Origin: a virus
Lineage: Duplodnaviria; Caudoviricetes
IMG/VR virus record: IMGVR_UViG_3300025889_000071
Length of the DNA stretch: 64,000 bases
Reading direction: 5' to 3' (one strand)
Shown: piece after piece, positions 4,109-20,432 of the stretch
Numbering within the stretch: position 1 is the first letter of the stretch
How the letters are laid out: each line of letters begins with the position of its first letter
Position numbers and translations under genes: made by a program
Notes under the pieces: generated by a model
The model's input: the letters and a program-made list of their open reading frames with translations, nothing else
Database searches by the model: none
What the model was told of the DNA's origin: nothing

Positions 4109-7100
4109 ATGGCTGACCCAACGATAAGAATTAAAAGGTCTTCTGTCGCCGGAAAAATTCCGACAGGAGACCAATTATCTTTAGGAGAAATAGCCCTAAA
4201 CACATATGATGGTAAGTTTTACGCTTCTAAAAATGTTGGTATTGGAACTACAGTATTTGCAGTCAATACATGGTCTGCTGGAGTAGGGACTAATTATTAT
4301 GATACTTATTTTACTGAAGGTAATGTTGGAATAGGAACGACAATACCAACATCAAAACTTCATGTTGGTGGTGATATTTTAGTATCTGGGTTTTCGACAG
4401 TAAGTAATATTAAAATTGAAAATTCACTATATGATTCAAACAATAACGTAGGTTCATCTGGATCGGTATTAAGTTCCACAGGTTCCAATTTAATCTGGAT
4501 ATCTCAAGTTGCTGGAAATCAAGGTTTCCAAGGTGCACAAGGTAATCAAGGATATCAAGGAAACACAGGATCTCAAGGTGCCGCAGGGTCTACAGGTGCA
4601 CAGGGTTCACAAGGAACTTCAGGATCCCAAGGTAATCAAGGAAATCAGGGCGATACTGGAGTACAAGGTTCTACTGGAGCACAAGGTGCCACAGGTTCTC
4701 AAGGTGCTACTGGAGCTCAAGGTGCTACTGGTGCTCAAGGAGATGTTGGTGCACAGGGTAATCAAGGTAATCAAGGTAATCAAGGAACTTCAGGATCCCA
4801 AGGTAATCAAGGTAATCAAGGCGATACTGGTGCTCAAGGTGCACAAGGTGCCACAGGTGCTCAAGGAGACACTGGTGCTCAAGGTGCTCAAGGCGATACT
4901 GGAGCTCAAGGTAATGAAGGCGATACTGGAGCTCAAGGAGACACAGGTGCTCAAGGTAATCAAGGAGACACTGGTGCTCAAGGCAATCAAGGTAATCAAG
5001 GTAATCAAGGTGCTACAGGAACCCAAGGTAATCAAGGTAATCAAGGAGACACTGGTGCTCAAGGCAATCAAGGCGATACGGGAGCTCAAGGTGCCACAGG
5101 TGCTCAAGGAAATCAGGGCAATGATGGAAATTTTGGTGGTGCTACCTTTGATTATACATTTAGCACTACAACAACAGATTCTGATCCCGGTCAGGGAAAT
5201 TTAAGATTTAACAATGCTACTTTATCATCAGCTACATTAATGTATATTGATGATGAAGATGATAATGGAACTGACATACAATCATTTTTAAGAACTATTG
5301 ATGATTCCACTTCTACAATTAAGGGACATGTTAGAGTATCTAATAAATTAGACGCTAGTGATTTTGCACTGTTTACAATTAGTGGAACAAATGTAGAAGC
5401 AACTGGATATCATAAAGTAACTGTAACTTTTGTTTCTGGGAGTGCATCTTCATTTAGTGATAGTGAAGATATAATAGTTACCTTTGCTAGAACTGGTAAT
5501 ATTGGTGACACTGGAGCTCAAGGTGCTCAAGGTAATCAAGGTGCTACAGGCACTGGTGCTCAAGGAGACACTGGTGCTCAAGGTAATCAAGGACATCAAG
5601 GTCTTACTGGATCTGGAGCTCAAGGTGCTCAAGGAGATACAGGAGCTCAAGGTAATCAAGGCGATACGGGAGCTCAAGGTGCCACAGGTGCTCAAGGTAA
5701 TCAAGGCGATACTGGAGCTCAAGGTAATCAAGGCGATACTGGAGCTCAAGGAGACACTGGTGCTCAAGGTAATCAAGGAGATACTGGAGCACAAGGTAAT
5801 CAAGGCGATACGGGAGCTCAAGGTGCCACAGGTGCTCAAGGTGCTCAAGGAGATGTTGGTGCACAAGGTAATCAAGGACATCAAGGTGATACAGGAGCAC
5901 AAGGTAATCAAGGAGATACTGGAGCACAAGGTGCCACAGGTGCTCAAGGAAATCAAGGTAATCAAGGTAATCAAGGCAATCAAGGTAATCAAGGAAATAC
6001 TGGCGATACTGGTGCTCAAGGTGCCACAGGAAATACTGGTGCTCAAGGTGCACAAGGCAATCAAGGAAATCAGGGATATCAGGGAGATCAAGGTGATAAA
6101 GGAGGTCTTTTATATCTCTTTGATGGTGCAAGTCAGGCAAGTGACCCATCTAATGGAGATGTTAGATTTAACAATGCTACATTTGGTTCTGTAACAATAG
6201 TATATGTTGATGGACTAACATCAGATGCAGCAAATATAGAAACTTATGTTGATACTTGGGGAGATTCTACCAATACCGTTAAAGGTCATTTAATTATAAA
6301 ATCAAATACAAATTCGGATGTAACATATTGTATTTTTGAAGTTACTGGGGTTAGTGCACAAACTGGATGGACTAATATTAATGTCCAAAACCCAGTAGGG
6401 TCTGCACCATCAGATAATGAATCAATAGTTCTTGAATTTATTAGATCTGGTGATATAGGTGCTCAAGGTGCTCAAGGAGCACAGGGAAATCAAGGATATC
6501 AAGGTGATACTGGAGCTCAAGGTAATCAGGGCCATCAAGGAGACACAGGTGCTCAAGGCAATCAAGGTAATCAAGGAGACACTGGTGCTCAAGGTGCCAC
6601 AGGTGCTCAAGGAGATGTTGGTGCACAAGGTAATCAAGGTAATCAGGGAGATGTAGGTGCTCAAGGTGCACAAGGTGCCACAGGTGCTCAAGGAGATGTT
6701 GGTGCTCAAGGTAATCAAGGACATCAAGGACATCAAGGTGCCACAGGTGCTCAAGGAGACGTTGGTGCACAAGGTAATCAAGGCAATCAAGGTAATCAAG
6801 GTGCCACAGGTGCTCAAGGAGACACCGGAGCTCAAGGTAATCAAGGACATCAAGGAGACACTGGTGCTCAAGGTAATCAAGGACATCAAGGTGATACCGG
6901 AGCTCAAGGTAATCAAGGGCATCAAGGAGACACCGGAGCTCAAGGTAATCAAGGGCATCAAGGTGATACCGGAGCACAGGGAAATCAAGGATATCAAGGT
7001 GATACCGGAGCACAGGGAAATCAAGGATATCAAGGTGATACTGGAGCACAGGGTAATCAAGGACATCAAGGAGACACCGGAGCTCAAGGTAATCAAGGAC

Positions 7101-8971
7101 ATCAAGGTGATACTGGAGCACAGGGTAATCAAGGACATCAAGGAGACACCGGAGCTCAAGGTAATCAAGGTTATCAAGGCAATCAGGGCACTGAAGGTAA
7201 TTTCGGTGGTGCCACATTCTATTACACCTTTGAAACAAATACTACAGATGCCAATCCTGGTGCTGGAGATTTAAGATTAGACAACTCTACGCAAAATGCT
7301 GCAACTGGTATCTATATCTGTGATACTGATGAGAGCGGTAATGATATATCATCTTATCTACAAACTATTGATGACTCTACGAGCACTATCAAGGGCCATG
7401 TCAAAATTTCAAACAAAACAGACGCAAGTCAATTCATATTATTCACAATTTCCAGCCTGACTGACAACACTGGTTATTTTGATATTACAGTAAGTCCTGT
7501 TGACTCATCAGCAACCAATCCATTTAGTGATGGTGAAGACATTATCATTACTTTTGCTAGAACTGGTGATAAAGGAGACACTGGAGCTCAAGGCAATCAA
7601 GGTTATCAAGGTAACACTGGAGCACAAGGAGACACTGGTGCTCAAGGTAATCAAGGTAACACTGGAGCACAAGGAGACACTGGTGCTCAAGGTAATCAAG
7701 GTAATCAAGGTGATACTGGTGCTCAAGGTAATCAAGGTAATCAAGGACATCAAGGAGACACTGGTGCTCAAGGTAATCAAGGACATCAAGGTGATACCGG
7801 AGCTCAAGGTAATCAAGGTCATCAAGGAGACACCGGAGCTCAAGGTAATCAAGGGCATCAAGGAGACACTGGTGCTCAAGGTAATCAAGGACATCAAGGA
7901 GACACTGGTGCTCAAGGTAATCAAGGACATCAAGGACATCAAGGTGATACGGGTGCACAAGGAGATGTTGGTGCACAAGGTAATCAAGGACATCAAGGAC
8001 ATCAAGGTGATACGGGTGCACAAGGAGATGTTGGTGCACAAGGTAATCAAGGACATCAAGGACATCAAGGTGATACTGGTGCACAAGGTAATCAAGGACA
8101 TCAAGGACATCAAGGTGATACCGGAGCACAGGGAAATCAAGGATATCAAGGTGATACTGGAGCACAGGGTAATCAAGGACATCAAGGTGATACCGGAGCA
8201 CAGGGAAATCAAGGTTATCAAGGCGATGATGGTGCTCAAGGATTCCAAGGTGAAGCTGGAGGTGGAGGCGGCGGTGGTGGATTTGACACCGGAATCACAA
8301 CCTCTGCTTATGCTTCTTCATCGGATGATATTGATGGATTCACTGCTATTGGTGTCACTTTCCCGGCAACTGCAAGTAAGAGATATGTCATTGAAAGTGT
8401 GCACATCACAAATGTGACAGCAAGTGATTTGTATGTGACCACTAGAATGGATTATGATGGTGGACAGAATGTTCCAATCACGAATAAAATTATTGTTCCT
8501 TATCAAGGTGCACTAGAAGTTGTTGATCAACCACTGGTCGCAAATCCATCAGACAATCTTCGTTTTGCTTCTTATGCTGGTCTCGGAACTAATCCTGCAG
8601 GAGTTGCAAATGGTCTTGATTGTTGGATTACATATAAGCAAGATGATGCAACGGATTATATTGGAATCGGTTCAAATATTACTGCAACCACAGATCAAAC
8701 AGTCTTTACTTCTGTCACTAATCCATCAGTAATTAATACGATTGTGCTTGCAAATTATAGTGATACTGTAGATGTTGATGCATCTATTTCTATTTTCAGA
8801 GGTGGTTCTGTTCGTGTTGGATATCTGGCATATAATCTTACGATTCCTCAAAACAGCAATGTTCAGATTCTTCCAAGACAAAAGAGAATCGAAGCCACTG
8901 ATACAATTGTTGCCACAGCATCAGTTGCAAATGCTTTAACTGTGAATGTTGCAGGCAAATATATAACCTGA
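4109..8971 (+). CDS. Collagen-like tail fibre/spike protein, 1620 aa
   Basis: N-terminus [14 protein letters not shown]...[16 protein letters not shown] (Mtd N-terminal-like fibre anchor), [16 protein letters not shown] motif, four long Gly-X-Y tracts, three copies of a ~120-aa globular domain, C-terminal beta-rich domain. Confidence 0.85.
4517..8257 (+). repeat. Four coding Gly-X-Y tracts (approx 4517-5128, 5498-6100, 6452-7198, 7568-8257)
   Basis: 9-nt units ggtaatcaa / ggtgctcaa / ggagacact / ggacatcaa encoding [12 protein letters not shown]. Confidence 0.95.
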
Positions 8972-8998
8972 TATAATTAGAATATTTGATTTGAATAT

Positions 8999-9577
8999 AT
9001 GTTTAATATTAAACAGGGGGATATTTTTCCTACCAGGTTTTATAGTGTAGATATTTTTGAGCACGATGAAAATCAAAAATATAAAAACTTTTTGATTGAT
9101 ATGTCGAAAAAGACACCCGGAACTGTGAGGAGTAATCGTGGTGGGTGGCAGAGTGAAACAAATTTGTGGGAACATGAAGTATTCAAACCACTACTAGAAA
9201 AGACGACGGCAATTACTCAAAGTATTATTGAAAATTTATCAAAGAATCGTCCACAGATGGTGATTCGTTCAATGTGGGGTAATATAAATCCAAAAGGTGG
9301 AATGAACTTTACCCATGTTCATCCATCTGGCTGGATGAGTGGAGTTTACTATATACAATTGCCACAGGGAACAGATGTAATTAACTTTGAGGATCCAAGA
9401 CCTGCAAGAATGATGGATTTTCAAATGTCTTGTATTGTGAACGATGAATACTTTGCACACAATCCTAAAGTTGGTGAACTGCTTTTGTTTCCTTCTTGGC
9501 TTCCACACTTTGTTCTTCCAAATACATCTGATGAAGAACGAATTTCAATCTCATTTAATATCGAACTAATAGTATGA
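8999..9577 (+). CDS. 2OG-Fe(II) oxygenase, TIGR02466-like
   Basis: HVHP...SGVYY...FEDPRP...LLLFPSWLPH...RISISFN gives an HxH...H...R double-stranded beta-helix signature. Confidence 0.85.
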   Translation: MFNIKQGDIFPTRFYSVDIFEHDENQKYKNFLIDMSKKTPGTVRSNRGGWQSETNLWEHEVFKPLLEKTTAITQSIIENLSKNRPQMVIRSMWGNINPKGGMNFTHVHPSGWMSGVYYIQLPQGTDVINFEDPRPARMMDFQMSCIVNDEYFAHNPKVGELLLFPSWLPHFVLPNTSDEERISISFNIELIV

Positions 9578-10233
9578 GCGTTTTAATTGCACTGCCTTGT
9601 TATGGTGGAATCGTTAGTGATAAGACTGCCAAAGGGTTATTTAATCTTGGAAAAGAATTAAGAACAAATCAAATTGATCATGGATTAATCACTCTGGCAA
9701 ATGAGAGTTTGATTACCAAAGGTCGGTCAAGAATTGCCAACTTCTTTATCAATAACACACAATATGAATATGTAATGTTTATTGATGCGGACATTGGATT
9801 TGAACCACAAGATGTATTAAAACTTTTATCATATCAAAGAGATATTGTTTGTGGAGCTTATCCTATGAAGAGTATTCCATTACAATACAATTATAATATT
9901 TCACAACCACCATTAGCAGAGGATGGATTGATTAAGATTGATAGTATTGGATTTGGGTTTGCTCTTATTCACCGTAGAGTTTTTGATAAAATTCGTGAGA
10001 ACTATGAGGATTTAAAATATACTCCTTCACTGGGACACTCATCTTATCCAATCACAGAAGCAGAATATCATAATTCATATCATTATTTTAATGAACTCAA
10101 AAAAGATATGGCATTCTTACCAGAGGATTTTTCATTCTTTGAGAGAGCAAGTAGTGTTGGATTTACATCATGGTTAGACACAAGTATTAAATTGTGTCAT
10201 GTTGGTTCTCATGTCTTCCAGGAGAATAAATAA
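9574..10233 (+). CDS. GT-A fold glycosyltransferase (GT2-like)
   Basis: VLIALPCY, ESLITKGRSRI, MFIDADIGF (DxD), EDFSFFER, LCHVG. Confidence 0.75.
   Translation: MSVLIALPCYGGIVSDKTAKGLFNLGKELRTNQIDHGLITLANESLITKGRSRIANFFINNTQYEYVMFIDADIGFEPQDVLKLLSYQRDIVCGAYPMKSIPLQYNYNISQPPLAEDGLIKIDSIGFGFALIHRRVFDKIRENYEDLKYTPSLGHSSYPITEAEYHNSYHYFNELKKDMAFLPEDFSFFERASSVGFTSWLDTSIKLCHVGSHVFQENK
10227..10232 (+). promoter_or_regulatory. Late promoter TAAATA
   Basis: Just upstream of the first Kelch-like gene. Confidence 0.6.
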
Positions 10234-10253
10234 AAAAAATAGTGTACTGATAA

Positions 10254-12176
10254 ATGTCTGGAGTTTTTGGTTTATCGGATGTAAGAACGGAGCAAATAGA
10301 TAGAACCTGGCCAGAATTTACGAATTATGGTTATTTTGTTGGTGGTGTAGCTCCTCCTGGATTTGCAGAGTCACGTATTGATCGATTTGAGATAGCAACG
10401 GAAACAATAAGTCAACCACCTAACTTTAGTCAGTATAGCTCTGGTCAAGCAATTTCGGATGCTGTAGAAGCTTCTTCATCAGAATATGGTTATATTGCTG
10501 GAGGTGATAATAGAGGAGGTAGTCCTGCAGCGAGAAGTTATATACGTAGAATTGATTTTTCACACGAACTTGATAGTGTTGTAGGGATCACACAAATTCC
10601 TGCCACACTACCTGCGAATCAGGACAACATGGCATCAATTTCCACCCCACAATATGCATATTTTGGTGGTGGTGCTGCTCCTTATGTGTGTAATATTCAT
10701 AGACTTGAATTCTCATCAGAAACAATGTCTACAGATGCTTCAAATCTCACACAAAATAGAGGATTTCTTGCAGGTGTATCTGGTTCTCAATATGGATATT
10801 TTTGTGGAGGATTTTCCACTCCACCTCCAACCAGACATTCTACAATTGATAGGATGGATTTTTCTACAGAAACTGGAAGTGTTCCTCCTGTTGAAGGTCA
10901 ATTGACAGTTGGAAGAAGTCACCTCAATTCTTTTGAGAGTTCAGAACATGGTTATATTGTTGGTGGTTTGACACCGGTTGTTTGTACCGTTGACCGATTA
11001 GATTTTTCTTCAGAAACTGTTGCGGCAACTACAGGAGTACCTGAAATAATAGCGGCAGGAATAGATTTTTCTGTTAAAGAATATGGTTATATTGGTGGTA
11101 ATGGCCCAGGAGCAAAATCCACTATCTATAGATTTGAGTTTTCATCCGAAACATTTTCAGCACCAGGAGCAATTTTAAGTAGTGTGAGGGGTTATGGTTC
11201 TGGAGTTAGAGACAGTAGTCGTATAAAACCAAATTCACTGAAAGGAACTGATATTGATGGAGTTCCTATTTCCAGCACTTATGGATATTTTATTGGTGGT
11301 TTTTCTTTTAGTACTCCACCTCCGGTCACTAGTTATCACACTACTATTGACCGCATCAATTATTCTACCGAAACTGTATCGTCTAATATATCTCCTAGAG
11401 GATATTTATCTTCACCAGGAAGAAATGGTGCAGGAGCAGTATCTAATTTCAATTATGGGTATGTTGCTGGTGGACTTTCTCCAATTAAAACAACAGTTGA
11501 AAAGATGGATTTTACTAATGAAATTACATCATTACCGGGAAATAATTTATCTCAAGCAAGAGCATATTTAGCAGGAGTTTACAATAATAATTATGGATAT
11601 TTTTGTGGAGGATTCCATCCAACACCAGCATATTATAGCACTATTGATCGTATTGATTTTTCTACAGAATCTGTATCAACTCCTCCGGTAAAAATGAATA
11701 ATGAATTGAGTATACCTAATGGTGGAACCGTATTTAATCCAAGTTATGCATATATAACTGGATTTAACGGATATGTTTGTACTATTGACCGATTAGAATT
11801 TTCTACAGAAACAATGGTAGAACCATCCCAGCAATTAACTAGAGCGGCTTTGGGTTTTGGTACATTGCAGAATTCAAATTATGGTTATTTTTGTTCTGGA
11901 AGAACTTCACCAACTGTGCGTCCGGCAGTCATAGATCGTATGGATTTTTCAAATGAAACTGTAAGTTCACCTATTGGCAATGTGTCTCAAGCAAGACCGG
12001 GTTTAGCAGGAGTTTACAATAATAATTATGGTTATCTTGGTGGAGGAGAAATACCACCACTTAGTCCTGATTATGTCTGTACAATTGACCGATTAGAATT
12101 TTCAAATGAAACAGTATCGGAACCAAGTTCAGAATTGACAAGAAGTAGAAGCAATGCCAGAGGCCTCTCAAACTAA
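10254..12176 (+). CDS. Kelch-like beta-propeller repeat protein A (12 repeats)
   Basis: 12 repeats of YGY(F/I)xGG...IDR(L/I)(D/E)FS.ET, arranged 6+6 around a linker TDIDGVPISS. Confidence 0.75.
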   Translation: MSGVFGLSDVRTEQIDRTWPEFTNYGYFVGGVAPPGFAESRIDRFEIATETISQPPNFSQYSSGQAISDAVEASSSEYGYIAGGDNRGGSPAARSYIRRIDFSHELDSVVGITQIPATLPANQDNMASISTPQYAYFGGGAAPYVCNIHRLEFSSETMSTDASNLTQNRGFLAGVSGSQYGYFCGGFSTPPPTRHSTIDRMDFSTETGSVPPVEGQLTVGRSHLNSFESSEHGYIVGGLTPVVCTVDRLDFSSETVAATTGVPEIIAAGIDFSVKEYGYIGGNGPGAKSTIYRFEFSSETFSAPGAILSSVRGYGSGVRDSSRIKPNSLKGTDIDGVPISSTYGYFIGGFSFSTPPPVTSYHTTIDRINYSTETVSSNISPRGYLSSPGRNGAGAVSNFNYGYVAGGLSPIKTTVEKMDFTNEITSLPGNNLSQARAYLAGVYNNNYGYFCGGFHPTPAYYSTIDRIDFSTESVSTPPVKMNNELSIPNGGTVFNPSYAYITGFNGYVCTIDRLEFSTETMVEPSQQLTRAALGFGTLQNSNYGYFCSGRTSPTVRPAVIDRMDFSNETVSSPIGNVSQARPGLAGVYNNNYGYLGGGEIPPLSPDYVCTIDRLEFSNETVSEPSSELTRSRSNARGLSN

Positions 12177-12179
12177 CAC

Positions 12180-12185
12180 TAAATA
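12180..12185 (+). promoter_or_regulatory. Late promoter TAAATA
   Basis: Upstream of the GT4-FkbM gene. Confidence 0.6.
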
Positions 12186-12206
12186 ATCAAAACTACATTA
12201 TTGTAT

Positions 12207-13844
12207 ATGAAGTCCGGAGCAACTGAAAGTTCTTTTTATTATCTTGCTCAACATTATACTTTTCCAGAGAATGTTGATGTTAAGAGAACGACGAATGAAA
12301 TTATAAAGTCCAATAAACAGTATAAAATTATCTGGGCTCATGATAATTGTGACCAGATGGGACACAAAGACCTTCCACAATATGTGAATAAAATTGATGG
12401 CATTGTTTGTGTTTCGAACTGGGAACGAGAGCAGTATATAAAGTATAAAAGAGCACCAGCAGAGAAACTTCATGTAATTCCAAACGGAGTTCATGATATG
12501 TTTCGTCCTTCTGGAAAACCAAAATCAAAAACTTGTATCTTTTTTTCTGCACCACATAAAGGAGTTGCACCTTTAGTTCCAATTTGGAAGGAAGTTATTA
12601 AACATCATCCAGATGCAAAACTCAAAGTGTTTTCTTCGATGTCTCTTTATGGTGATATTCAACCAGGAGAAGGTGACAATGAAACAATCACAGGACCAAA
12701 TGGATTAGAGCCATCACCATTTATTTCTGTTTATAAAGAACTTCAGAAACTTCCTGGTGTTGAGTATTCACCTTGTATTGATCGTGAAGAGTTGCTACCT
12801 CATATTCAGGATGCAGCTTTTTATATTCATCCCAATGTTTGGGAGGAAACTTTTTGTGTATCATTAGCAGAAGCAATGTCTTGTGGATGCTTTCCAATAA
12901 CAACAGACATGGGAGCACTTCCAGAAACGGCAAATGGAATTGGAAAGTTTATTCCAATGTCAGGAAAAAACACACCAAGAGGATGGATACCTGACGAAAC
13001 ATTTCATAAAAACTTTGCCGAAGAAATGATTCGTGCTTTTCATTTCTTTGATGTTGCAAGAGATGAATATTATCAGGCATCAGAACTGATATCAAATTAT
13101 GCAATAGAAAATTATAATTGGAAAAGAGTTGCTGGACTGTGGAAAAGTTATATTGAAAAGTATGATGATTATTATGAAAGATTTTCCGAAATCTTAATGA
13201 CTCCATATGATCATATTGATTATCTCTATCAGATGAAGTATGAGCAATCAATAAATCCAAAAGTGATTTATGATATTGGTTCCAATTGTTTGCACTGGTC
13301 AAAGGTTGCACAAATGGTATGGAAAGATTCTAATATTTTTCATGTTGATGGATATGACCAATTCGAATCTCTCTATAAAAATAAGAAAGTTAATTATGCC
13401 ATTGAGGTATTAAGTTCAGTAGATGATAAAGTTGTAACTTATTTTCAGAATGCCAGAAATCATGGAGGGTGTTCTTATTATGAATTAAACTATAAGGATT
13501 TTCCTTATAATCAAAATGCATTTAGAAATCAACATTACTCTGAAGTTAAGAGAAGGACAAAGACTTTAGATACTCTAATCAGAGAGAAAGGATGGCCAAA
13601 ACCTGACTTGATTAAGATGGATGTTCAGGGATGTGAATTAGATATTATCAAAGGTGCTGTTAGTGCTATTAAATATTGTCCGAATATTATTCTTGAGTTG
13701 CAAAACAAAGAGTATATGAAAGGTGCTCCAATGAGAGATGAAGTCATTTCTTATATGAAATCGATTGGATATGTTCTGTCTTCACACTTTACACAAAACT
13801 CATCTGATGCTGATGGAGATTATCACTTCTCCAAACATAAATAA
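12207..13844 (+). CDS. Glycosyltransferase (GT-B, GT4-like) fused to FkbM-family methyltransferase
   Basis: IIWAHD, VCVSNW, HVIPNG, EETFCVSLAEAMSCGCFPIT (GT-B ExxxxxxxE); C-terminal IYDIGS...TLDTL...PDLIKMDVQGCELDIIKG. Confidence 0.85.
   Translation: MKSGATESSFYYLAQHYTFPENVDVKRTTNEIIKSNKQYKIIWAHDNCDQMGHKDLPQYVNKIDGIVCVSNWEREQYIKYKRAPAEKLHVIPNGVHDMFRPSGKPKSKTCIFFSAPHKGVAPLVPIWKEVIKHHPDAKLKVFSSMSLYGDIQPGEGDNETITGPNGLEPSPFISVYKELQKLPGVEYSPCIDREELLPHIQDAAFYIHPNVWEETFCVSLAEAMSCGCFPITTDMGALPETANGIGKFIPMSGKNTPRGWIPDETFHKNFAEEMIRAFHFFDVARDEYYQASELISNYAIENYNWKRVAGLWKSYIEKYDDYYERFSEILMTPYDHIDYLYQMKYEQSINPKVIYDIGSNCLHWSKVAQMVWKDSNIFHVDGYDQFESLYKNKKVNYAIEVLSSVDDKVVTYFQNARNHGGCSYYELNYKDFPYNQNAFRNQHYSEVKRRTKTLDTLIREKGWPKPDLIKMDVQGCELDIIKGAVSAIKYCPNIILELQNKEYMKGAPMRDEVISYMKSIGYVLSSHFTQNSSDADGDYHFSKHK
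13838..13843 (+). promoter_or_regulatory. Late promoter TAAATA
   Basis: Upstream of the 13876 ORF. Confidence 0.55.
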
Positions 13845-13875
13845 AAAAAATTGAACTGATATCTATAGGAGTTCT

Positions 13876-14721
13876 ATGTCAAATAATTATAAAGAAATTG
13901 CTCTTGCAAAATCCGATGAAGTTCTTGATGAGAGTAATGAATTTATGCTCAAGGTTCTTGCGGAGTGTGATCGTTGGAAAGAATCTGAAAGAGAACTTGC
14001 ACAAGGAAGGTCAAACTTCCAGATTGAAAAGTTTATCGTTCATGATAATTTTACCATTCCATCAGCATTCAAAGCTGCAATTATCAACCGCAAGTCTGTG
14101 GCAGAGAACCTTCTAAATGGAATTCAGGATGCAAAGAAAATTGTAAGAGAGTTTCATTATAAGTGGGAAGGTAAAGATAAAACTCAACCAATCTGGTGGA
14201 AGAATCGTGAAGGTGGTGAAGACCTTTGTTGGTATGATATTGATGAATTCAATTTTCATCGTTTTATTGATGGATTGAATGCTGGATTCAAAGCACAGAC
14301 AACTGAACTTGAATTCTTTGATAAATTGATTGAAAGATTAATCGAATTGAACGGTGGTCATCCTCCAACAAAAGAAGAATTTGATGCCGATCAACCAGTT
14401 TATTGGGAAAGAAGATTTGCCAACCAGGCTCTTGATGAACTTCTTGCTGCACAAACAGGAGTCTCTGGTGGTAATATTCGTTCTATGAGAAGAGCAACCG
14501 CACCAACAGTTCTTGAGGATGATGTGAATCGTATTAAGGAAGGCTATGCAGATCCAAGCAATTCAATCGCATTCCTTGAGAGTCTTCAGAGACATGTTGC
14601 TTCTGGTATTGAGGAAATTAGTGGACTATCAAATAATATTCTTCAAGGAAGAAAGGAGCAAACAAAACAATTAAGTGAGGAAAAAGTTTCGTTATTTAAC
14701 GAAGAACTTCGCAAAAAATAA
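13876..14721 (+). CDS. Hypothetical alpha-helical / coiled-coil protein
   Basis: Long ORF with aggag SD, charged helical composition, GRSNFQIEKFIV motif; no function recognised. Confidence 0.75.
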   Translation: MSNNYKEIALAKSDEVLDESNEFMLKVLAECDRWKESERELAQGRSNFQIEKFIVHDNFTIPSAFKAAIINRKSVAENLLNGIQDAKKIVREFHYKWEGKDKTQPIWWKNREGGEDLCWYDIDEFNFHRFIDGLNAGFKAQTTELEFFDKLIERLIELNGGHPPTKEEFDADQPVYWERRFANQALDELLAAQTGVSGGNIRSMRRATAPTVLEDDVNRIKEGYADPSNSIAFLESLQRHVASGIEEISGLSNNILQGRKEQTKQLSEEKVSLFNEELRKK

Positions 14722-14725
14722 GTAA

Positions 14726-16579
14726 ATGCCATCAGATGTTTTTGGGTTAGATGTAGTTTATGATAGACAGGTCGATTCTAATTGGCCAGAGTCTGCGAAT
14801 TATGGTTACTTTGGTGGTGGTATTGCTCCACCTTTTGTTTGTACAATAGACCGCATAGATTTTTCTAGTGAAACTGTATCGGAACCAAGTAGTGAATTAA
14901 CTCAAGCAAGATATCTGTTAGCAGCAGTTTCTAATTCTAATTATGGTTACTTTGGTGGTGGTTATGCTCCACCACCTTTTGTTTGTACAATAGACCGATT
15001 AGATTTTTCTAGTGAGACCGTAACAGCACCAAGTAGTAATTTAACTCAAGCAAGAAACGGTTTAGCGGCAGTTTCTAATTCTAATTATGGTTACTTTGCT
15101 GGTGGTTTATTTAATTCATCTTATCTTTGTACAATCGACCGTATAGATTTTTCTAGTGAAACTGTATCGGAACCAAGTAGTGAATTAACTCAAACAAGAC
15201 AGGGTTTAGCAGCAGTCTCAAATTCTAATTATGGATACTTTGCTGGTGGTACAGCTCCACCTTTTGTTTGTGCCATTGACCGACTAGATTTTTCTAGTGA
15301 GACTGTAGCAGTGCCACCAGTAGGAGATCAATTAACTCAAGCAAGATATCAATTAACAGCAGTCTCAAATTCTAATTATGGATACTTTGCTGGTGGTACA
15401 GCTCCACCTTTTGTTTGTACCATTGACCGACTAGATTTTTCTAATGAGACTGTATCGGAACCAAGTAGTGAATTAACTCAAGCAAGATATATTTTAGCAG
15501 CAGTCTCAAATTCCAATTATGGTTACTTTGCTGGTGGTAGTGTTCCAGCTATTGTTTGTACCATTGACCGTTTAGATTTTTCTAATGAAACTGTATCGGA
15601 ACCAAGCAGCAACTTAACTCAAGCAAGAAGTTATTTAGCGGCAGTTTCTGATGGAAAATCAATAAACGCAAAAGGAGTTAAAAAAGGAACTGATGTTAAT
15701 GGAGTTCCCATCTCTAGCACTTATGGATACTTTGGTGGTGGTGATGCTCCAGGTGTGGGTGTAGTATGCACCATTGATCGTATTGATTTTTCAAATGAAA
15801 CGACATCAGTTCCATCAGTTGATAATCAATTAAGTGCTGCGAGGGATGATTTAACGGCAGTTTCTAATTCTAATTATGGATATTTTGCTGGTGGTTTTTC
15901 TCCACCTTTTATTTGTACTATTGACCGTTTAGATTTTTCTAACGAAATTACATCAATACCAAGTAGTCAATTGACTAGAAAAAGGGGAGATTTATCATCA
16001 CTCTCTAATTCAAATTATGGTTATTTTGGTGGTGGTGCTAATCCACTCAGTACTTCTACTGTTGATCGTATAGATTTTTCAAATGAAACTGTATCTGAAC
16101 CTAGTTCAGATTTAACTCAAGCACGGCATGAACTTGCGGCAGTATCTAGTTCTAGTTATGGATACTTTGCCGGAGGAAATCCCCTTCGTAGCACGATTGA
16201 TAGATTAGATTTTTCTAATGAAACTATAATTGTCCCTCCAGTAGGAAATCATTTACCACAGGCTAGATCATTATTATTTGGAGTTTCTGATTCTAATTAT
16301 GGTTACTTTGCTGGTGGTTCTCCTCCAGCACATTCTACTGTTGACCGTTTGGATTTTTCTAATGAGACTACATCAGCTCCATCACCAGAATTAGGAACGA
16401 CAAGATTAGGACTTTCTGGAGTTTCTAATTCTAATTATGGTTACTTTGCTGGTGGAGATAATCCTTCCATTGGCTTTCTCAGTAGTTTTGATCGCATAGA
16501 ATTTTCTACTGAGACTATTTCAGCACCAGCAAATAATTTACCTCAACCAAGAGGTACTTTAGCAGGAGTCTCAAACTAA
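14726..16579 (+). CDS. Kelch-like beta-propeller repeat protein B (12 repeats)
   Basis: 12 repeats of SNSNYGYF(A/G)GG...CTIDR(L/I)DFS(S/N)ETV..PSS.LTQAR, arranged 6+6 around linker TDVNGVPISS. Confidence 0.8.
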   Translation: MPSDVFGLDVVYDRQVDSNWPESANYGYFGGGIAPPFVCTIDRIDFSSETVSEPSSELTQARYLLAAVSNSNYGYFGGGYAPPPFVCTIDRLDFSSETVTAPSSNLTQARNGLAAVSNSNYGYFAGGLFNSSYLCTIDRIDFSSETVSEPSSELTQTRQGLAAVSNSNYGYFAGGTAPPFVCAIDRLDFSSETVAVPPVGDQLTQARYQLTAVSNSNYGYFAGGTAPPFVCTIDRLDFSNETVSEPSSELTQARYILAAVSNSNYGYFAGGSVPAIVCTIDRLDFSNETVSEPSSNLTQARSYLAAVSDGKSINAKGVKKGTDVNGVPISSTYGYFGGGDAPGVGVVCTIDRIDFSNETTSVPSVDNQLSAARDDLTAVSNSNYGYFAGGFSPPFICTIDRLDFSNEITSIPSSQLTRKRGDLSSLSNSNYGYFGGGANPLSTSTVDRIDFSNETVSEPSSDLTQARHELAAVSSSSYGYFAGGNPLRSTIDRLDFSNETIIVPPVGNHLPQARSLLFGVSDSNYGYFAGGSPPAHSTVDRLDFSNETTSAPSPELGTTRLGLSGVSNSNYGYFAGGDNPSIGFLSSFDRIEFSTETISAPANNLPQPRGTLAGVSN

Positions 16580-18470
16580 ATACAACATAAGGAAATAGAT
16601 ATCATGCCATCAGGAGTATTTGGTTTAGAAAAAACATATAAGAAGCAAAGAAAAAAAGATTGGCCAGAGTCTGCGAATTACGGTTATTCTGTGGGAACCA
16701 CAAATCCTACACTTGCACCACCAACTGGAGGAGCTTGTATTATTGATAGACTGGATCTTTCTACAGAAGTTGTTTCTAGTCCTGGATCAATTGCGAATTA
16801 TACTTATGCCATGTTTGACATGTCATCCCTAATTGGTAGGAATTATGGATATCTTGTCGGTGGAAAATCTCCATATAGTGCTGGTGTTCATTGTACAATA
16901 GTAAGACTTGATTTTTCAAATGAAACTTTTGAGGATATTGGTACTCATTTAAATTCATCTAAACAATGGACTTCTAGTGTCAACAGTCCGGAATATGGAT
17001 ACGTTTGTAGTGGTAGAGTTCCAACTCCAGCAGACATATCTACCATAGATAGATTGGATTTTTCTAGTGAAACTTTAACGTCTTCACTATCCAATCTTAC
17101 GACATCTAGAACAAATGCTGGGTCAACTTATTCGACACAATATGGATATATTGCTGCTGGTTTTGATGGCACATCTAATGTTGCTACAATAGATCGATTT
17201 GATTTTACCAACGAATCATCATCTGTGATTTCTGGAACATTAAATAATCCAGGCAGAACCGGATTATCTCAACATATACAAAGTCAGAGTTATGGATATG
17301 TTGCTAGTGGCAGTTCATCTTATCCCACCGTAGTGGATAAAATTGATTTTTCAAATGATAGTTTTTCAAGAACAACAGATATAACTGTAGGAAGAGGTTC
17401 TGCTGGAGGAGCATCTACTTTAAATTATGGATACTTATTGGGAGGTATGTTTCCATATCGTTCTGATATGGATAGAATAGACTTTTCAACGGACAGTGTA
17501 TCAACACCTTCTTCAACACAAACTTTGAATAATAGGGGAGGTTCTACAGTAATTGCGGGTGGAATAAACAAGAGTGCAAAATCAAGAAGATATTTTCTTG
17601 ATGTTGATGCTGTCCCTATAGGAAATGCTACTGGTTACTTTGCTGGTGGTGGTGCTCCGGCTGTTGTTTGTACAATCGACCGTATAGATTTTTCTAATGA
17701 GACTGTATCGGAACCAAGTAGTGAATTAACTCAAGCAAGATATCAGTTAGCAGCAGTCTCAAATTCGAATTATGGGTACTTTGCTGGCGGTTTTGCTCCA
17801 CCTCAAGTTTGTACAATAGACCGATTAGATTTTTCTAATGAGACTGTATCAGCACCAGGTAATGATTTAACTCAAGCAAGACAGTATTTAGCATCAGTCT
17901 CTAATTCTAATTATGGTTATTTTGGTGGTGGTGCTACTACTCCATCTTATGTTTGTACTATTGACCGATTAGATTTTTCTAATGAAACTGTATCAGAACC
18001 AAGTAGCAATTTAACTCAAGCAAGAAATCAATTAGCAGCAGTCTCAAATTCGAATTATGGTTACTTTGCTGGTGGTGGTCCAGGTAATGTTTGTACTATT
18101 GACCGACTAGATTTTTCTAATGAGACTGTATCGGAACCAAGTAGTGAATTAACTCAAGCAAGAACTGCTTTAGCAGCAGTCTCTAATTCTAATTATGGAT
18201 ACTTTGCTGGTGGGTGGGCCCCACCTCAACTTTGTACAATAGACCGACTAGATTTTTCTAATGAGACTGTATCGGAACCAAGTAGTGAATTAACTCAAGC
18301 AAGAAATGGTTCAGCAGCAGTCTCTAATTCTAATTATGGATACTTTGCTGGTGGTGCTACTCCATCTTATGTTTGTACTATTGACCGACTAGATTTTTCT
18401 AATGAGACTGTATCGGAACCAAGTAGTGAATTAACTCAAACAAGATATACTGCAGCAGGAGTCTCTGGTG
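14786..18470 (+). repeat. Dispersed/tandem ~141-nt coding repeats shared by Kelch-like genes B and C
   Basis: An identical 57-mer gaccgactagatttttctaatgagactgtatcggaaccaagtagtgaattaactcaa starts at 15425, 18101, 18242 and 18383. Confidence 0.95.
16577..16582 (+). promoter_or_regulatory. Late promoter TAAATA overlapping the stop codon
   Basis: Upstream of Kelch-like gene C. Confidence 0.6.
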
Positions 18471-19174
18471 GATGGGCTACTGCACCATCAATCGGACCAA
18501 GATCTGGACCAAGAACATCTGTCAATCCTGGTGGTGAAGGTGGTGGAGGTGGTGAAGGTGGTGGAGGTGCATCATCACAAATGACATTTAAGTATTATGG
18601 TTATGGATCAAATACGGGAACTTTATCCGTTCACTGGGCACCAGGACCACCCACTTCTAATACAATCAGTGCCGCACTTCCATTTACTGCCGATGGTTCA
18701 ACAGTAACATCAATCTCCGGACAAACGCATCCAGGACCAGGACAAACTTGGAAATCTGCTACTGTAGATTTAAGTCCATTATCACCGAGCACCGGACACT
18801 TTGTATTTAAATATCGTACTGGAACAAGTTTTAGAGGAGACTTCCAACTTGATGATATGGAATTCACACACTCTGGAGGAACTGATGATTTAGATCCGGA
18901 TTTGAAGAGAACTGCATCAACCGATAATTGGCAAAAATGGAATGCTGGCCCACCAGCAACATACAATACATCTTTCTTTTCTAATGTGACAGTTTCAACT
19001 TCTGCTCCTGGTGGATGGAACTATGATGCCGGAGGAACACCATCTGGTTCTACTGGAACGACATCAGACTCTGATGGGAGTCCAACTGGATATTACATCT
19101 ATGCAGAAACTTCTTCACCAAACTATCCACAGAAATATATGTGGTTGAGAACTGCAACTCCGGTTACGATTTAG
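16604..19174 (+). CDS. Kelch-like repeat protein C (12 repeats) with Gly/Pro linker and C-terminal MAM-like domain
   Basis: 12 YGY..GG repeats, GGEGGGGGEGGGG linker, then F.YY.YG..TGTL.V, W....VDL, GDFQLDD and TPSGSTG...GYYIYAETS motifs. Confidence 0.8.
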   Translation: MPSGVFGLEKTYKKQRKKDWPESANYGYSVGTTNPTLAPPTGGACIIDRLDLSTEVVSSPGSIANYTYAMFDMSSLIGRNYGYLVGGKSPYSAGVHCTIVRLDFSNETFEDIGTHLNSSKQWTSSVNSPEYGYVCSGRVPTPADISTIDRLDFSSETLTSSLSNLTTSRTNAGSTYSTQYGYIAAGFDGTSNVATIDRFDFTNESSSVISGTLNNPGRTGLSQHIQSQSYGYVASGSSSYPTVVDKIDFSNDSFSRTTDITVGRGSAGGASTLNYGYLLGGMFPYRSDMDRIDFSTDSVSTPSSTQTLNNRGGSTVIAGGINKSAKSRRYFLDVDAVPIGNATGYFAGGGAPAVVCTIDRIDFSNETVSEPSSELTQARYQLAAVSNSNYGYFAGGFAPPQVCTIDRLDFSNETVSAPGNDLTQARQYLASVSNSNYGYFGGGATTPSYVCTIDRLDFSNETVSEPSSNLTQARNQLAAVSNSNYGYFAGGGPGNVCTIDRLDFSNETVSEPSSELTQARTALAAVSNSNYGYFAGGWAPPQLCTIDRLDFSNETVSEPSSELTQARNGSAAVSNSNYGYFAGGATPSYVCTIDRLDFSNETVSEPSSELTQTRYTAAGVSGGWATAPSIGPRSGPRTSVNPGGEGGGGGEGGGGASSQMTFKYYGYGSNTGTLSVHWAPGPPTSNTISAALPFTADGSTVTSISGQTHPGPGQTWKSATVDLSPLSPSTGHFVFKYRTGTSFRGDFQLDDMEFTHSGGTDDLDPDLKRTASTDNWQKWNAGPPATYNTSFFSNVTVSTSAPGGWNYDAGGTPSGSTGTTSDSDGSPTGYYIYAETSSPNYPQKYMWLRTATPVTI

Positions 19175-19177
19175 AAC

Positions 19178-19183
19178 TAAATA
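19178..19183 (+). promoter_or_regulatory. Late promoter TAAATA
   Basis: Upstream of the prolyl-hydroxylase-like gene. Confidence 0.6.
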
Positions 19184-19211
19184 TTTTTAAAGATTGAGAA
19201 ATTGAGTTTGA

Positions 19212-19871
19212 ATGAATCATTTACTTGGTAATATCCTTATTCAACCAAATGTTGTGACAAAGGAAGGATGTAAATATCTCACAGAATATGTAAAGAAGGC
19301 ACCCAAAATGAGGATGGGTGTTTATGATGCCGAAAAATCAAATGAAACAAAAAAGGATGAATCAAAAGTAGATCCAAATGTAAGAGATGTAGAGTGTGCC
19401 GATATACAACCAATCATGGCAGACGTTAAATCTCTTTATGATGATATGGTATATAATGTCATCAATCCTTTTTATGACTTTTATATCAACGATAGTGAAG
19501 TTCCCCAGTTTTTATATTATAGGGAAGGAGGACACTACAAACCTCATTATGATGGTGAAGCCTTATGGGTAAATCCTGATGGAACAAAGCAATGGAAAAA
19601 ATCTATTGATAGAGATATTTCTACTGTTTTATTTTTGAATGATGATTTTGAGGGTGGAGAGTTTGTATTTCCAAAATACAGAATTCGTATTAAACCAGAA
19701 CCAGGCCTTCTGATCGCATTTCCATCAACACATCATTATCTGCATGGAGTAGAACCAGTTAAATCTGGTGAGAGAATCGTCAGTGTTTGTTGGATGAGAG
19801 TAAAAGGAGTTCCAACAAAGGATGAGCAAGATAAACAGATTGCAGATAAATATGGAATAGAGGTCTATTAA
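19212..19871 (+). CDS. 2OG-Fe(II) oxygenase, prolyl 4-hydroxylase-like
   Basis: QFLYYREGGHYKPHYD, ISTVLFLNDDFEGGEFVF, LHGVEPVKSGER: HxD...H...R. Confidence 0.88.
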   Translation: MNHLLGNILIQPNVVTKEGCKYLTEYVKKAPKMRMGVYDAEKSNETKKDESKVDPNVRDVECADIQPIMADVKSLYDDMVYNVINPFYDFYINDSEVPQFLYYREGGHYKPHYDGEALWVNPDGTKQWKKSIDRDISTVLFLNDDFEGGEFVFPKYRIRIKPEPGLLIAFPSTHHYLHGVEPVKSGERIVSVCWMRVKGVPTKDEQDKQIADKYGIEVY

Positions 19872-19877
19872 TTTAAA

Positions 19878-20432
19878 ATGACACAACTTTTAAAACATTA
19901 TTGGGTAGATAGGGATAATACCAGTGTCTTTGCAATTTCTTCATCAATGTGGAGTCGTCCCAGATTTGGATATGTGGCTCCTAATATCGCAGGTCTTGAG
20001 ATCGTTCATAGAATAACTGATAGTAATGGTATTCCTTTTTGCTTATCGACTTGCCCCGATGATACTACCATCACAGAAGAAGATGGTCTTGAAATTCTGA
20101 CTCAAGCAGAATGGGATGCAGAAATTGCTACTTATGATACCGCACAAGAAACAAAAAGATATGTTGAGGTAAGAAGTATTCGAGATAAACTTCTGTCCGA
20201 GACTGATTGGATTGTCACAAAATCGTTGGAGACAGGTGTTGCTCTGTCATCAGAATTTACAACCTGGAGAACTGCTTTAAGAAATCTTCCAAATGGTTCT
20301 GAATTTCCACTTACTCTTCCTGATGCACCAGTTGCAGTTTCTGTAAGTAATGCAGAATATCTGGCACAAGTAACTCAAATTCCGATGATTAATGATCCAA
20401 ATGTTGTGGAAGAAGAATTACCTGGTGAGTAA
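19878..20432 (+). CDS. Tail fibre assembly chaperone-like protein
   Basis: VRSIRDKLLSETDWIV...WRTALRNLP matches the R.R..LL..TDW...YRQALRDLP tail-assembly chaperone pattern. Confidence 0.75.
   Translation: MTQLLKHYWVDRDNTSVFAISSSMWSRPRFGYVAPNIAGLEIVHRITDSNGIPFCLSTCPDDTTITEEDGLEILTQAEWDAEIATYDTAQETKRYVEVRSIRDKLLSETDWIVTKSLETGVALSSEFTTWRTALRNLPNGSEFPLTLPDAPVAVSVSNAEYLAQVTQIPMINDPNVVEEELPGE

What the first reader, a model, noticed from the sequence alone, without database searches (positions are those of the whole stretch)
10254..19174. Three paralogous double six-bladed Kelch-like propeller proteins with a shared anchor motif
Seen: each ORF has exactly 12 YGY..GG repeats arranged 6+6. All start with (S/P)x(G/D)VFGL...Q....WPE, and all have a related linker between propellers (TDIDGVPISS, TDVNGVPISS, DVDAVPIGN). 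Many blades keep a Cys (VCTIDR). Inference: a family of interchangeable receptor-binding tips that plug into a common site through the N-terminal motif.
Basis: partly seen in the sequence, partly recalled or inferred. Interest (0 to 1): 0.65.

Follow-up and report, generated by a model that had tools for sequence, protein, structure and literature searches.

The report
Cyanophage Kelch-propeller trio with address peptides
An uncultured T4-like virus of marine cyanobacteria encodes three related proteins, each a chain of two six-bladed Kelch propellers, and each begins with its own conserved 14-residue tag; related phages always carry one protein of each tag type, so the three are probably complementary parts of a host-binding fibre kit, although none has yet been shown in a virus particle.

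Summary
ORFs 10254-12176, 14726-16579 and 16604-19174 are collinear paralogues (41-50% identity). Each has 12 Kelch-type blades arranged 6+6. The third also carries a C-terminal MAM domain. An AlphaFold model of the middle one (pLDDT 88) shows two propellers. The first superposes on Keap1 and designed six-bladed Kelch domains (Z about 41, rmsd 1.6-1.9 A). The N-terminal motif and the inter-propeller linker are disordered in the model.

The first 14 residues come in three conserved types: A (GVFGL.KVYKKQ), B (FSL.EVRTEQ) and C (DVFGL..VYD.Q). All 25 related loci with three such genes hold exactly one of each. From residue 15 onward, the three proteins of one genome resemble each other more than they resemble their orthologues, which indicates concerted evolution. 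So the three are complementary, not interchangeable.

The genes sit between gp16 and gp17. Upstream is a collagen-like fibre whose C-terminal domain always accompanies the trio. The trio is interleaved with oxygenase and glycosyltransferase genes and is followed by a tail-fibre chaperone gene.

My best reading is a set of virion-attached adhesins (about 50%). No virion evidence exists. The scan has already noted this cassette in other genomes; the three tag types are new here.

The parts
10254..12176 (+). K1: double Kelch-propeller protein, 640 aa, with a type-B N-terminal tag (GVFGLSDVRTEQID). Propellers at about 10326-11207 and 11280-12173.
   Evidence: PHROG 19111 at E 1.9e-106. Pfam Kelch PF24681 scores 29.3 bits, below its cut-off of 50.
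14726..16579 (+). K2: double Kelch-propeller protein, 617 aa, with a type-C tag (DVFGLDVVYDRQVD). Propellers at 14801-15649 and 15722-16576.
   Evidence: AF2 pLDDT 88, with 2 x 24 strands. Residues 25-309 superpose on Keap1/SAKe6 at Z about 41, rmsd 1.6-1.9 A. Pfam PF24681 scores 69.7 bits, above its cut-off of 50.
16604..19174 (+). K3: double Kelch-propeller protein plus MAM domain, 856 aa, with a type-A tag (GVFGLEKTYKKQRK). Propellers at about 16679-17557 and 17630-18469. Gly-rich linker, then MAM domain at about 18581-19171.
   Evidence: Its C-terminal propeller is 84% identical in DNA (78% in protein) to the N-terminal propeller of K2.
10254..10316 (+). N-terminal address peptide of K1 (21 aa, up to WPE).
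14726..14791 (+). N-terminal address peptide of K2 (22 aa). Residues 1-21 have pLDDT below 50 in the model.
16604..16669 (+). N-terminal address peptide of K3 (22 aa).
4109..8971 (+). Collagen-like fibre protein, 1620 aa. It has four G-X-Y tracts, three internal globular modules, and a C-terminal domain at 8288-8968 that always accompanies the Kelch trio.
   Evidence: Pfam Collagen at E 2e-129. The C-terminal domain is 45-50% conserved just upstream of the cassette in 22 loci. Among phage records it occurs only in S-SKS1 and AG-345 viruses.
8999..9577 (+). 2OG-Fe(II) oxygenase (2OG-FeII_Oxy_5).
   Evidence: Conserved cassette member.
9574..10233 (+). Putative GT2-like glycosyltransferase.
   Evidence: Weak Pfam hit. 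Conserved at 59-73% identity in relatives.
12201..13844 (+). GT1/GT4 glycosyltransferase fused to an FkbM methyltransferase.
13876..14721 (+). Very conserved helical protein of unknown family (u281). In relatives it is fused to the C-terminus of the GT1 glycosyltransferase.
   Evidence: Alignment A2 has 77% mean identity. Fusions shown. Model pLDDT is 61, and the match to prefoldin beta is only a weak look-alike.
19212..19871 (+). 2OG-Fe(II) oxygenase of the prolyl-hydroxylase type (2OG-FeII_Oxy_3).
19878..20432 (+). Tail-fibre assembly chaperone-like protein (Phage_tail_APC).
   Evidence: Pfam 30.8 bits, above the cut-off of 26.6. PHROG 4912 'tail fiber assembly' at E 5.5e-27. Among phage records it occurs only with the cassette.

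Best explanation
The three genes encode a complementary set of fibre-associated adhesins. SHOWN: each protein has a short unstructured N-terminal peptide followed by flexible 'beads on a string' of closed six-bladed Kelch propellers. There are two propellers per protein here, and two, three or four in relatives. SHOWN: the first 14 residues come in three types (A, B, C) that are orthologous across phages. F, L, Q and N are invariant in all three types, and each genome keeps one gene of each type. SHOWN: everything downstream of residue 14 is homogenised among the three genes of a genome by recombination or gene conversion. Variation is concentrated in the loop after the GG doublet and in the two residues after the conserved Arg. 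INFERRED: the 14-mer is an address. It either places each chain in its own socket on the virion or joins A, B and C into one complex. The most likely partner is the conserved C-terminal domain of the collagen-like fibre encoded just upstream. INFERRED: the variable B-C and D-A loops, which form the ligand face of Kelch domains such as Keap1, bind host-surface ligands. In K3, an added C-terminal MAM domain supplies a further adhesion head. INFERRED: the interleaved oxygenases, glycosyltransferases and (in relatives) a sulfotransferase may decorate the Pro/Ser/Thr-rich loops or the collagen fibre.
For: Fold: AF2 pLDDT 88, 24+24 strands, and the tag and linker below pLDDT 50. Foldseek TM 0.90-0.94 to six-bladed Kelch domains. 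VIA Z about 41, rmsd 1.6-1.9 A over 277-282 residues for model residues 25-309. Tag types: 25/25 three-gene loci (17 distinct triples) hold one A, one B and one C, and 14/14 two-gene loci hold two different types. Among the top 120 homologues the counts are A 25, B 30, C 32. By column, orthologue identity far exceeds paralogue identity in columns 0-13, and the relation reverses from column 15. Bodies: paralogues within a genome are 64.7% identical, same-type orthologues 55.8% and different-type proteins 55.6%. The K2 and K3 propellers are 84% identical in DNA. The tag is found only on Kelch proteins: 122 motif hits in 69 loci, all Kelch. Context: the cassette fibre-Cterm | 2OG | GT | Kelch x3 | 2OG | TFA recurs in 26 IMG/VR loci. 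The fibre C-terminal domain, u281 and the TFA-like protein occur in phage records only where the Kelch proteins occur. ATAAATA boxes, resembling T4 late promoters, lie 28-64 nt upstream of the fibre gene, K1, u281 and the TFA gene. Loop variability and P/S/T enrichment. MAM relatives are bacterial T9SS surface proteins. Precedent: the Kelch protein CBB_552 was found in virions by mass spectrometry (PMC5259590), and BFVD neighbours are annotated 'virion structural protein' in phiKZ-like phages.
Against: There is no virion proteomics, imaging or binding data for any member. The only cultured carrier, S-SKS1, has a fragmented record in this region. No complex could be modelled, so the partner of the tag is a guess. 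Gene neighbourhood would equally fit proteins that are substrates or partners of the tailoring enzymes. The TFA-like gene is missing in some relatives (L051, L052). Unsupervised clustering separates type B cleanly, but types A and C differ at only a few positions. The assignment of the variable loops to the ligand face rests on motif correspondence with Kelch_1 and Keap1, not on inspected coordinates.
Confidence: 0.5

Rival explanations
1. The N-terminal tag is a recognition handle, like a leader peptide, for the co-encoded tailoring enzymes or a chaperone. It is not a virion anchor. Each tag type directs its protein to a different modification route: oxygenase/GT2, sulfotransferase, or GT1 with u281.
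For: In most loci, type A follows 2OG/GT2, type B follows the sulfotransferase and type C follows GT1-MT plus u281. u281 is an accessory domain of the GT1 enzyme, as shown by fusions. The loops are rich in Pro/Ser/Thr.
Against: The pairing is not fixed. In the window, B follows GT2 and A follows C, and in L004 A follows the sulfotransferase. The window lacks the sulfotransferase yet keeps type B. This rival is also compatible with the proteins ending up on the virion.
Confidence: 0.2
2. One reading: the three proteins are interchangeable receptor-binding tips that compete for one common socket through a shared motif.
For: The F, L, Q, N and WPE positions are shared by all three. The bodies are variable.
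Against: The three tag types are conserved across divergent genomes with strict one-of-each composition. Paralogue identity is near zero at several tag positions, while orthologue identity there is 0.5-0.9.
Confidence: 0.1
3. The proteins are not virion components. They act inside the infected cell as Kelch-type adaptors that bind host proteins, as poxvirus Kelch proteins do.
For: Kelch domains are classic protein-protein interaction modules. Poxvirus Kelch proteins appear among the structural neighbours.
Against: No BTB/BACK or other intracellular effector domain is present. The position is in a structural gene block, between a fibre gene and a fibre chaperone gene. One member carries an extracellular-type MAM domain. 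The strings of 2-4 propellers and hypervariable loops are typical of adhesins.
Confidence: 0.1
4. The proteins decorate the capsid or neck (Hoc- or whisker-like) rather than the tail fibres.
For: The cassette lies between gp16 and gp17, next to the neck genes gp13 and gp15, not in the baseplate cluster.
Against: The flanking fibre protein has a tail-fibre-type N-terminus and matches tail-fibre PHROGs. A tail-fibre assembly chaperone homologue closes the cassette.
Confidence: 0.1

Closest known systems
Six-bladed Kelch beta-propeller domains (Keap1, KLHL3/12/17, Plasmodium K13, designed SAKe6)
   Same: Same fold at Z about 41 and rmsd 1.6-1.9 A. Same repeat logic: an R..hhhh strand, an hhhhGG strand, a loop, an h.h.D strand and a fourth strand. 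Variation falls in the loops that form the ligand face in Keap1.
   Different: Sequence identity is only 14-17%. The canonical Trp of strand D is replaced (E-T-V). There is no BTB/BACK domain. Two to four propellers are strung together in tandem. Blades within a propeller are nearly identical (83-86% DNA identity). The genes are viral, in a structural gene context.
Branched tailspike complex of Ackermannviridae phages (CBA120 TSP1-4; PMC8825819, PMC11414711)
   Same: The logic is the same: several receptor-binding proteins per virion, each with its own conserved, non-interchangeable N-terminal assembly part and a variable, exchangeable binding body.
   Different: In CBA120 the N-terminal parts are folded domains of 150-335 residues and the bodies are trimeric beta-helix enzymes. 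Here the address is a peptide of about 14 residues and the bodies are Kelch propellers. Assembly has not been demonstrated here.
Kelch-like virion proteins of jumbo phages (CBB_552 of vB_PcaM_CBB, PMC5259590; 'virion structural proteins' of PhiPA3, Noxifer and Phabio in BFVD)
   Same: These are phage-encoded Kelch-type propellers, and at least one was detected in virions by mass spectrometry.
   Different: Similarity is at the fold level only (13-20% identity). They lack the N-terminal tag, the three-type rule and the tailoring-enzyme cassette.
PHROG 19111 and the hypothetical proteins of Synechococcus phage S-SKS1 (Llyrvirus)
   Same: True homologues: E 1e-106 to 1e-190 to the PHROG and 56% identity to S-SKS1. 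S-SKS1 has the same cassette, including u281, the TFA-like protein, the fibre C-terminal domain, a sulfotransferase and a ferrochelatase-like gene.
   Different: They are annotated only as hypothetical. The S-SKS1 record is broken across these repeats, so its gene set cannot be read cleanly.
Predicted 'hydroxylate then sulfate/glycosylate' neighbourhoods of 2OG dioxygenases with collagen-like or tail-collar proteins (Iyer et al. 2010, PMC2938197)
   Same: Co-encoded dioxygenases, a sulfotransferase (in relatives; Pfam E 3e-17) and a collagen-like fibre.
   Different: That work did not describe the Kelch trio or its tags. No chemistry has been shown in either case.

Membership tests
Kelch-repeat beta-propeller superfamily | Tandem repeats of 44-56 residues with a hydrophobic strand plus GG doublet and a conserved Arg before the first strand | tested here: met
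   12 repeats of about 47 aa per protein. Blade consensus is YGYFGGG....TIDRLDFSNETVS.P...L.QAR..LAAVS.
Kelch-repeat beta-propeller superfamily | Score above the curated cut-off of a Pfam Kelch model | tested here: inconclusive
   K2 passes (PF24681, 69.7 bits against 50). K1 scores 29.3 bits, below the cut-off. K3 has no Kelch hit at E 0.01. K1 and K3 are nevertheless collinear homologues of K2 (E 7e-145 and 2e-172).
Kelch-repeat beta-propeller superfamily | Closed six-bladed propeller of four-stranded blades | tested here: met
   This applies to the K2 model only: 24+24 strands, pLDDT 88. Residues 25-309 cover whole Keap1 and SAKe6 domains at Z about 41 and TM 0.90-0.94. The second propeller, K1 and K3 are inferred from sequence.
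Kelch-repeat beta-propeller superfamily | Canonical Tyr and Trp of the Kelch_1 motif | tested here: not met
   The Trp position reads Val or Ile (E-T-V) in the blade consensus. This is a divergent subfamily.
BTB-Kelch / Cullin-3 substrate adaptors | N-terminal BTB and BACK domains | tested here: not met
   Pfam finds no such domain. The N-terminus is a disordered peptide of about 22 residues.
Phage tail-fibre / receptor-binding proteins | Gene lies in the fibre module with a fibre-assembly chaperone | tested here: met
   Collagen-like fibre upstream and a Phage_tail_APC / PHROG 4912 gene downstream. The layout recurs in 26 loci.
Phage tail-fibre / receptor-binding proteins | Present in the virion and binds the host surface | not testable with these tools
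   No proteomic or binding data were found.
Ackermannviridae-type branched RBP complex | Folded N-terminal anchor and assembly domains (XD-type, 150-335 aa) | tested here: not met
   Only 14-25 residues precede the first blade. The resemblance is in logic, not homology.
MAM domain (C-terminus of K3) | Pfam PF00629 score above the gathering cut-off | tested here: met
   28.2 bits against 26.4. Homologues P0126-P0131 carry a precomputed PF00629 assignment.
PHROG 19111 (unknown function) | Significant match to the family profile | tested here: met
   E 1.9e-106 (K1), 6.4e-190 (K2) and 6.5e-141 (K3).

The most novel reading that the evidence does not exclude
The A, B and C tags assemble into an obligate 1:1:1 heterotrimeric hub, with the invariant F, L, Q and N residues forming a pseudo-threefold core. 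This would make a three-armed fibre tip in which each arm is a chain of Kelch propellers. Phage fibres are otherwise homotrimeric, so this would be a new fibre architecture. It would also be post-translationally decorated by its own enzyme set, and its binding bodies would be kept uniform by gene conversion while selection holds the three tags apart.
Probability: 0.25. Interest if true: 0.8.

Novelty: new variant of a known kind. Interest (0 to 1): 0.6.

Why it matters
T4-like cyanophages are among the most abundant viruses in the ocean, and how they recognise Synechococcus and Prochlorococcus is poorly understood. This family is large: more than 1,372 relatives were found in metagenomes. It is entirely unannotated and absent from nearly all cultured cyanophages. 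If the trio is a fibre-tip adhesin set, three things follow. It defines a host-recognition device built from a eukaryote-style interaction fold. It gives a simple sequence rule (tags A, B and C) for annotating the genes. It also shows concerted evolution of the binding bodies beside strictly preserved assembly addresses. One cultured carrier, S-SKS1 on Synechococcus WH7803, makes the idea directly testable.

Tried and rejected
Context came from the search for related loci instead.
2. No whole genome is held for the window.
3. I considered the tag as a T4-type capsid-targeting sequence cleaved at (L/I)xE and rejected it. The site is not conserved: K2 and the A types lack it.
4. I considered u281 as the virion adaptor for the type-C protein and rejected it. 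It is recurrently fused to a GT1 glycosyltransferase. Its model is poor (pLDDT 61). Its prefoldin-beta match (Z 8) is within the noise for helical hairpins. The protein Atlas gave nothing.
5. I asked whether the three internal globular modules of the collagen protein serve as three docking sites. They are not conserved in relatives; only the C-terminal domain is.
6. The terminator-like hairpins inside the Kelch genes are GGTGGT...CCACC repeats that encode the GG..PP residues, not terminators.
7. Exact TATAAATA late promoters are absent from the cassette. Only the 7-mer ATAAATA is found.
8. Unsupervised clustering of the 14-mers into three groups failed to split A from C, so the typing uses two explicit positions.
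9. The MAM domain has no match in phage records.
10. Literature searches for Kelch or propeller proteins in cyanophage virions found nothing specific.

Full report
SETTING. The window is almost entirely coded on the + strand and has about 37% G+C. Its packaging, tail and head genes are about 77% identical in DNA to T4-like cyanomyoviruses such as S-SM2 and Bellamy. The genome is therefore an uncultured member of that group. No whole genome is held for it. The order of the genes identified by homology is:
- gp13-like head-closure protein (445-1878)
- gp15-like tail sheath stabiliser (1917-2921)
- gp16 small terminase (2935-3363, Pfam DNA_Packaging)
- about 23 kb of other genes
- gp17, gp18, gp19, gp20 and onward
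The finding lies inside this insertion between gp16 and gp17.

THE OBSERVATION. A motif scan finds 12 repeats of about 47 residues in each, split 6+6 by a linker of about 20-25 residues. The repeat motifs occur nowhere else in the window. The proteins are collinear paralogues at 41-50% identity. Pfam's Kelch model PF24681 passes its cut-off for the middle protein only. All three match PHROG 19111, a family of unknown function.

An AlphaFold2 model of the middle protein was built on 76 homologues. It has mean pLDDT 88 and two blocks of 24 strands, at residues 26-308 and 333-616. The low pTM of 0.53 is consistent with two domains that have no fixed mutual orientation. Foldseek matches six-bladed Kelch domains with target TM-scores of 0.90-0.94. 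VIA-align places model residues 25-309 on the whole Kelch domain of Keap1 (residues 325-609) and on designed SAKe6 propellers, at Z about 41 and rmsd 1.6-1.9 A over 277-282 residues. That propeller is therefore closed and complete. The second propeller, and the other two proteins, are inferred from sequence.

Residues 1-21 (the N-terminal motif) and 312-330 (the linker) have pLDDT below 50. The third protein additionally carries a Gly-rich linker and a MAM domain above Pfam's cut-off. Its only relatives are two other Kelch proteins and bacterial T9SS surface proteins.

THE FAMILY AND ITS NEIGHBOURHOOD. A word-seeded search found more than 1,372 relatives in marine and other metagenomes, and all are unnamed. 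Among 50,697 phage records, only Synechococcus phage S-SKS1 and three single-cell 'Marine virus AG-345' contigs carry them. Family members have 12, 18 or 24 blades, that is two, three or four propellers. The number is usually the same for the three genes of one genome.

In 26 longer IMG/VR loci the same cassette recurs:
- a fibre gene
- a 2OG oxygenase
- often a GT2
- three Kelch genes, interleaved with a sulfotransferase (Pfam E 3e-17; absent from this window), a GT1-methyltransferase and a conserved 280-aa protein here called u281
- a second oxygenase
- usually a Phage_tail_APC chaperone homologue
- a ferrochelatase-like gene on the other strand

The length of the upstream fibre gene varies from 295 to 2,101 residues. 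Its last 230 or so residues are always conserved at 45-50% identity. That domain, u281 and the chaperone homologue occur in phage records only where the Kelch genes occur.

u281 turned out to be an accessory domain of the glycosyltransferase. It is fused to a GT1 domain in AG-345-L05 and in at least five metagenomic proteins. ATAAATA boxes, which resemble T4 late promoters, lie 28-64 nt upstream of the fibre gene, K1, u281 and the chaperone gene. This suggests late expression but does not prove it.

THE N-TERMINAL MOTIF. This part is new here. In the 76-sequence alignment the motif is the most conserved segment: F6 and L8 are invariant, and Q15, W20 and E22 exceed 90%. In 69 loci, all 122 occurrences of the motif head Kelch proteins, two of which are truncated. 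It is therefore not a general adaptor shared with other kinds of tip.

The first 14 residues fall into three types:
- A: G-[IV]-F-G-L-x-[KR]-V-Y-K-K-Q
- B: [IV]-F-S-L-x-E-V-R-T-E-Q
- C: D-[IV]-F-G-L-x-x-[VI]-Y-[DE]-x-Q

By this rule, all 25 loci with three genes (17 distinct triples) hold exactly one of each type. All 14 loci with two genes hold two different types. Among the top 120 database relatives the three types are about equally common, at 25, 30 and 32. The window has B (K1), C (K2) and A (K3). This BCA order was seen only here; the other loci are ABC (13) or ACB (11).

Unsupervised clustering separates B cleanly, but it does not separate A from C at the top level. The A/C distinction therefore rests on few positions. 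However, the column-wise test is independent of my rule for those columns. In columns 0-13, identity between same-type proteins of different genomes is 0.4-0.9, while identity between the paralogues of one genome is 0-0.5. From column 15 onward the relation reverses.

Over the propeller bodies, paralogues of one genome are 64.7% identical. Same-type orthologues (55.8%) are no closer than different-type proteins (55.6%). In the window, the first propeller of K2 and the second propeller of K3 share 84% DNA identity over 853 nt, and their blades are 83-86% identical to each other. The bodies are thus homogenised within a genome, while three distinct N-terminal peptides have been preserved through all that exchange. 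This argues strongly that the three tags are functionally non-equivalent and all are required.

WHERE VARIATION SITS. Across 400 sampled blades, the highest entropy and most of the indels are in the loop after the GG doublet. Entropy is also high in the two residues after the conserved Arg and at one position of the S-x-P turn. By correspondence with the Kelch_1 motif, these are the B-C loop and the end of the D-A loop. Those loops form the ligand-binding face in Keap1. This step rests on established knowledge of Kelch domains, not on inspected coordinates. The B-C loops are enriched in Pro, Ser and Thr (0.36-0.47 against 0.28-0.31 overall). That would suit hydroxylation and glycosylation by the neighbouring enzymes. 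This idea matches earlier predictions for collagen-like and tail-collar proteins (PMC2938197), but it is untested.

INTERPRETATION. The best-supported reading is a complementary trio of fibre-associated adhesins. A short address peptide docks or assembles each chain, most plausibly at the conserved C-terminal domain of the collagen-like fibre. The chains of propellers present variable binding faces, and one chain carries an extra MAM head. I put this at about 0.5.

The closest functional analogy is the branched tailspike complex of CBA120-like phages. There, each tailspike has its own non-interchangeable N-terminal assembly part and a variable body (PMC8825819, PMC11414711). This is a likeness of logic, not homology. 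Kelch proteins are known in virions of jumbo phages (CBB_552, PMC5259590; BFVD neighbours).

The rival readings are as follows:
- The tag is a recognition handle for the tailoring enzymes or a chaperone (0.2).
- Intracellular adaptors (0.1).
- Head or neck decoration (0.1).

A more novel variant, an obligate A:B:C heterotrimeric hub, is not excluded (0.25). It would be compatible with the invariant F, L, Q and N positions and with the usually equal number of propellers per chain.

LIMITS. There is no experimental evidence for any member. Only one of the three proteins was modelled, and no complex was modelled.

Earlier notes of this scan describe the same cassette in other genomes and the near-identical blades in this one. 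I re-measured the blades at 83-86% DNA identity, which is not full identity. None of the notes shown mentions the three tag types.

Noticed in passing
window 13876-14721; L070:14464-16356; P0132, P0134, P0139, P0152, P0187: The very conserved 281-aa protein upstream of K2 is a free-standing version of a domain that is fused to the C-terminus of a GT1/GT4 glycosyltransferase in relatives. The family is small (116 clusters at 50% identity). Its core is a helix, beta-hairpin, helix unit that resembles prefoldin beta only weakly (Z 8).
   Followed up: partly
window 8288-8968 (last 227 aa of the collagen-like protein): This C-terminal fibre domain has no Pfam family. It is the one part of the upstream fibre gene that always accompanies the Kelch cassette, in proteins from 295 to 2,101 aa long. 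Among phage records it occurs only in S-SKS1 and AG-345 viruses.
   Followed up: partly
window 2935-3363 to 26352: The whole fibre, tailoring and Kelch block (about 23 kb) is inserted between the small (gp16) and large (gp17) terminase genes, which are adjacent in T4.
   Followed up: no
window 18581-19171: The MAM domain at the end of K3 is rare in the family: only two other Kelch proteins carry it. Its other relatives are T9SS-sorted surface proteins of Bacteroidota, which suggests domain capture from bacteria.
   Followed up: partly
window 5144-5494, 6110-6448, 7214-7564: Three globular modules of about 115 aa interrupt the collagen tracts. They give a weak DUF5077 hit (23 bits, just below the cut-off). 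A similar module occurs in second collagen genes of some relatives (L022, L027).
   Followed up: partly
window 3356, 4045, 10226, 13837, 19846: All five ATAAATA heptamers in 3-21 kb lie just upstream of gene starts (28-64 nt for the fibre gene, K1, u281 and the TFA-like gene), like T4-type late promoters.
   Followed up: partly
window 14816-15906 and 18350-18366: The terminator-like hairpins reported inside the Kelch genes are the repeated GGTGGT...CCACC codons for GG..PP. They are an artefact of the repeats.
   Followed up: yes
L001/L002 (S-SKS1, NC_020851.1, bases 1-1226 and 203159-207940): The only cultured carrier has its cassette split across the ends of the linear record. It shows truncated Kelch ORFs and unannotated gaps, probably from assembly collapse in the repeats.
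   Followed up: partly
window 12176-14726 compared with relatives: The window lacks the 275-aa sulfotransferase gene that precedes one Kelch gene in most relatives. Its tag order (B, C, A) was not seen in any other locus.
   Followed up: partly
L070 (Marine virus AG-345-L05, locus 6582-19588): This distant Kyanoviridae relative also has three Kelch-like proteins of about 920-970 aa, with divergent tags (RGTFRLKNVRQE, RGVWSLENVELK, RGTWSLSEAWAEK). The first follows the fibre gene directly.
   Followed up: partly
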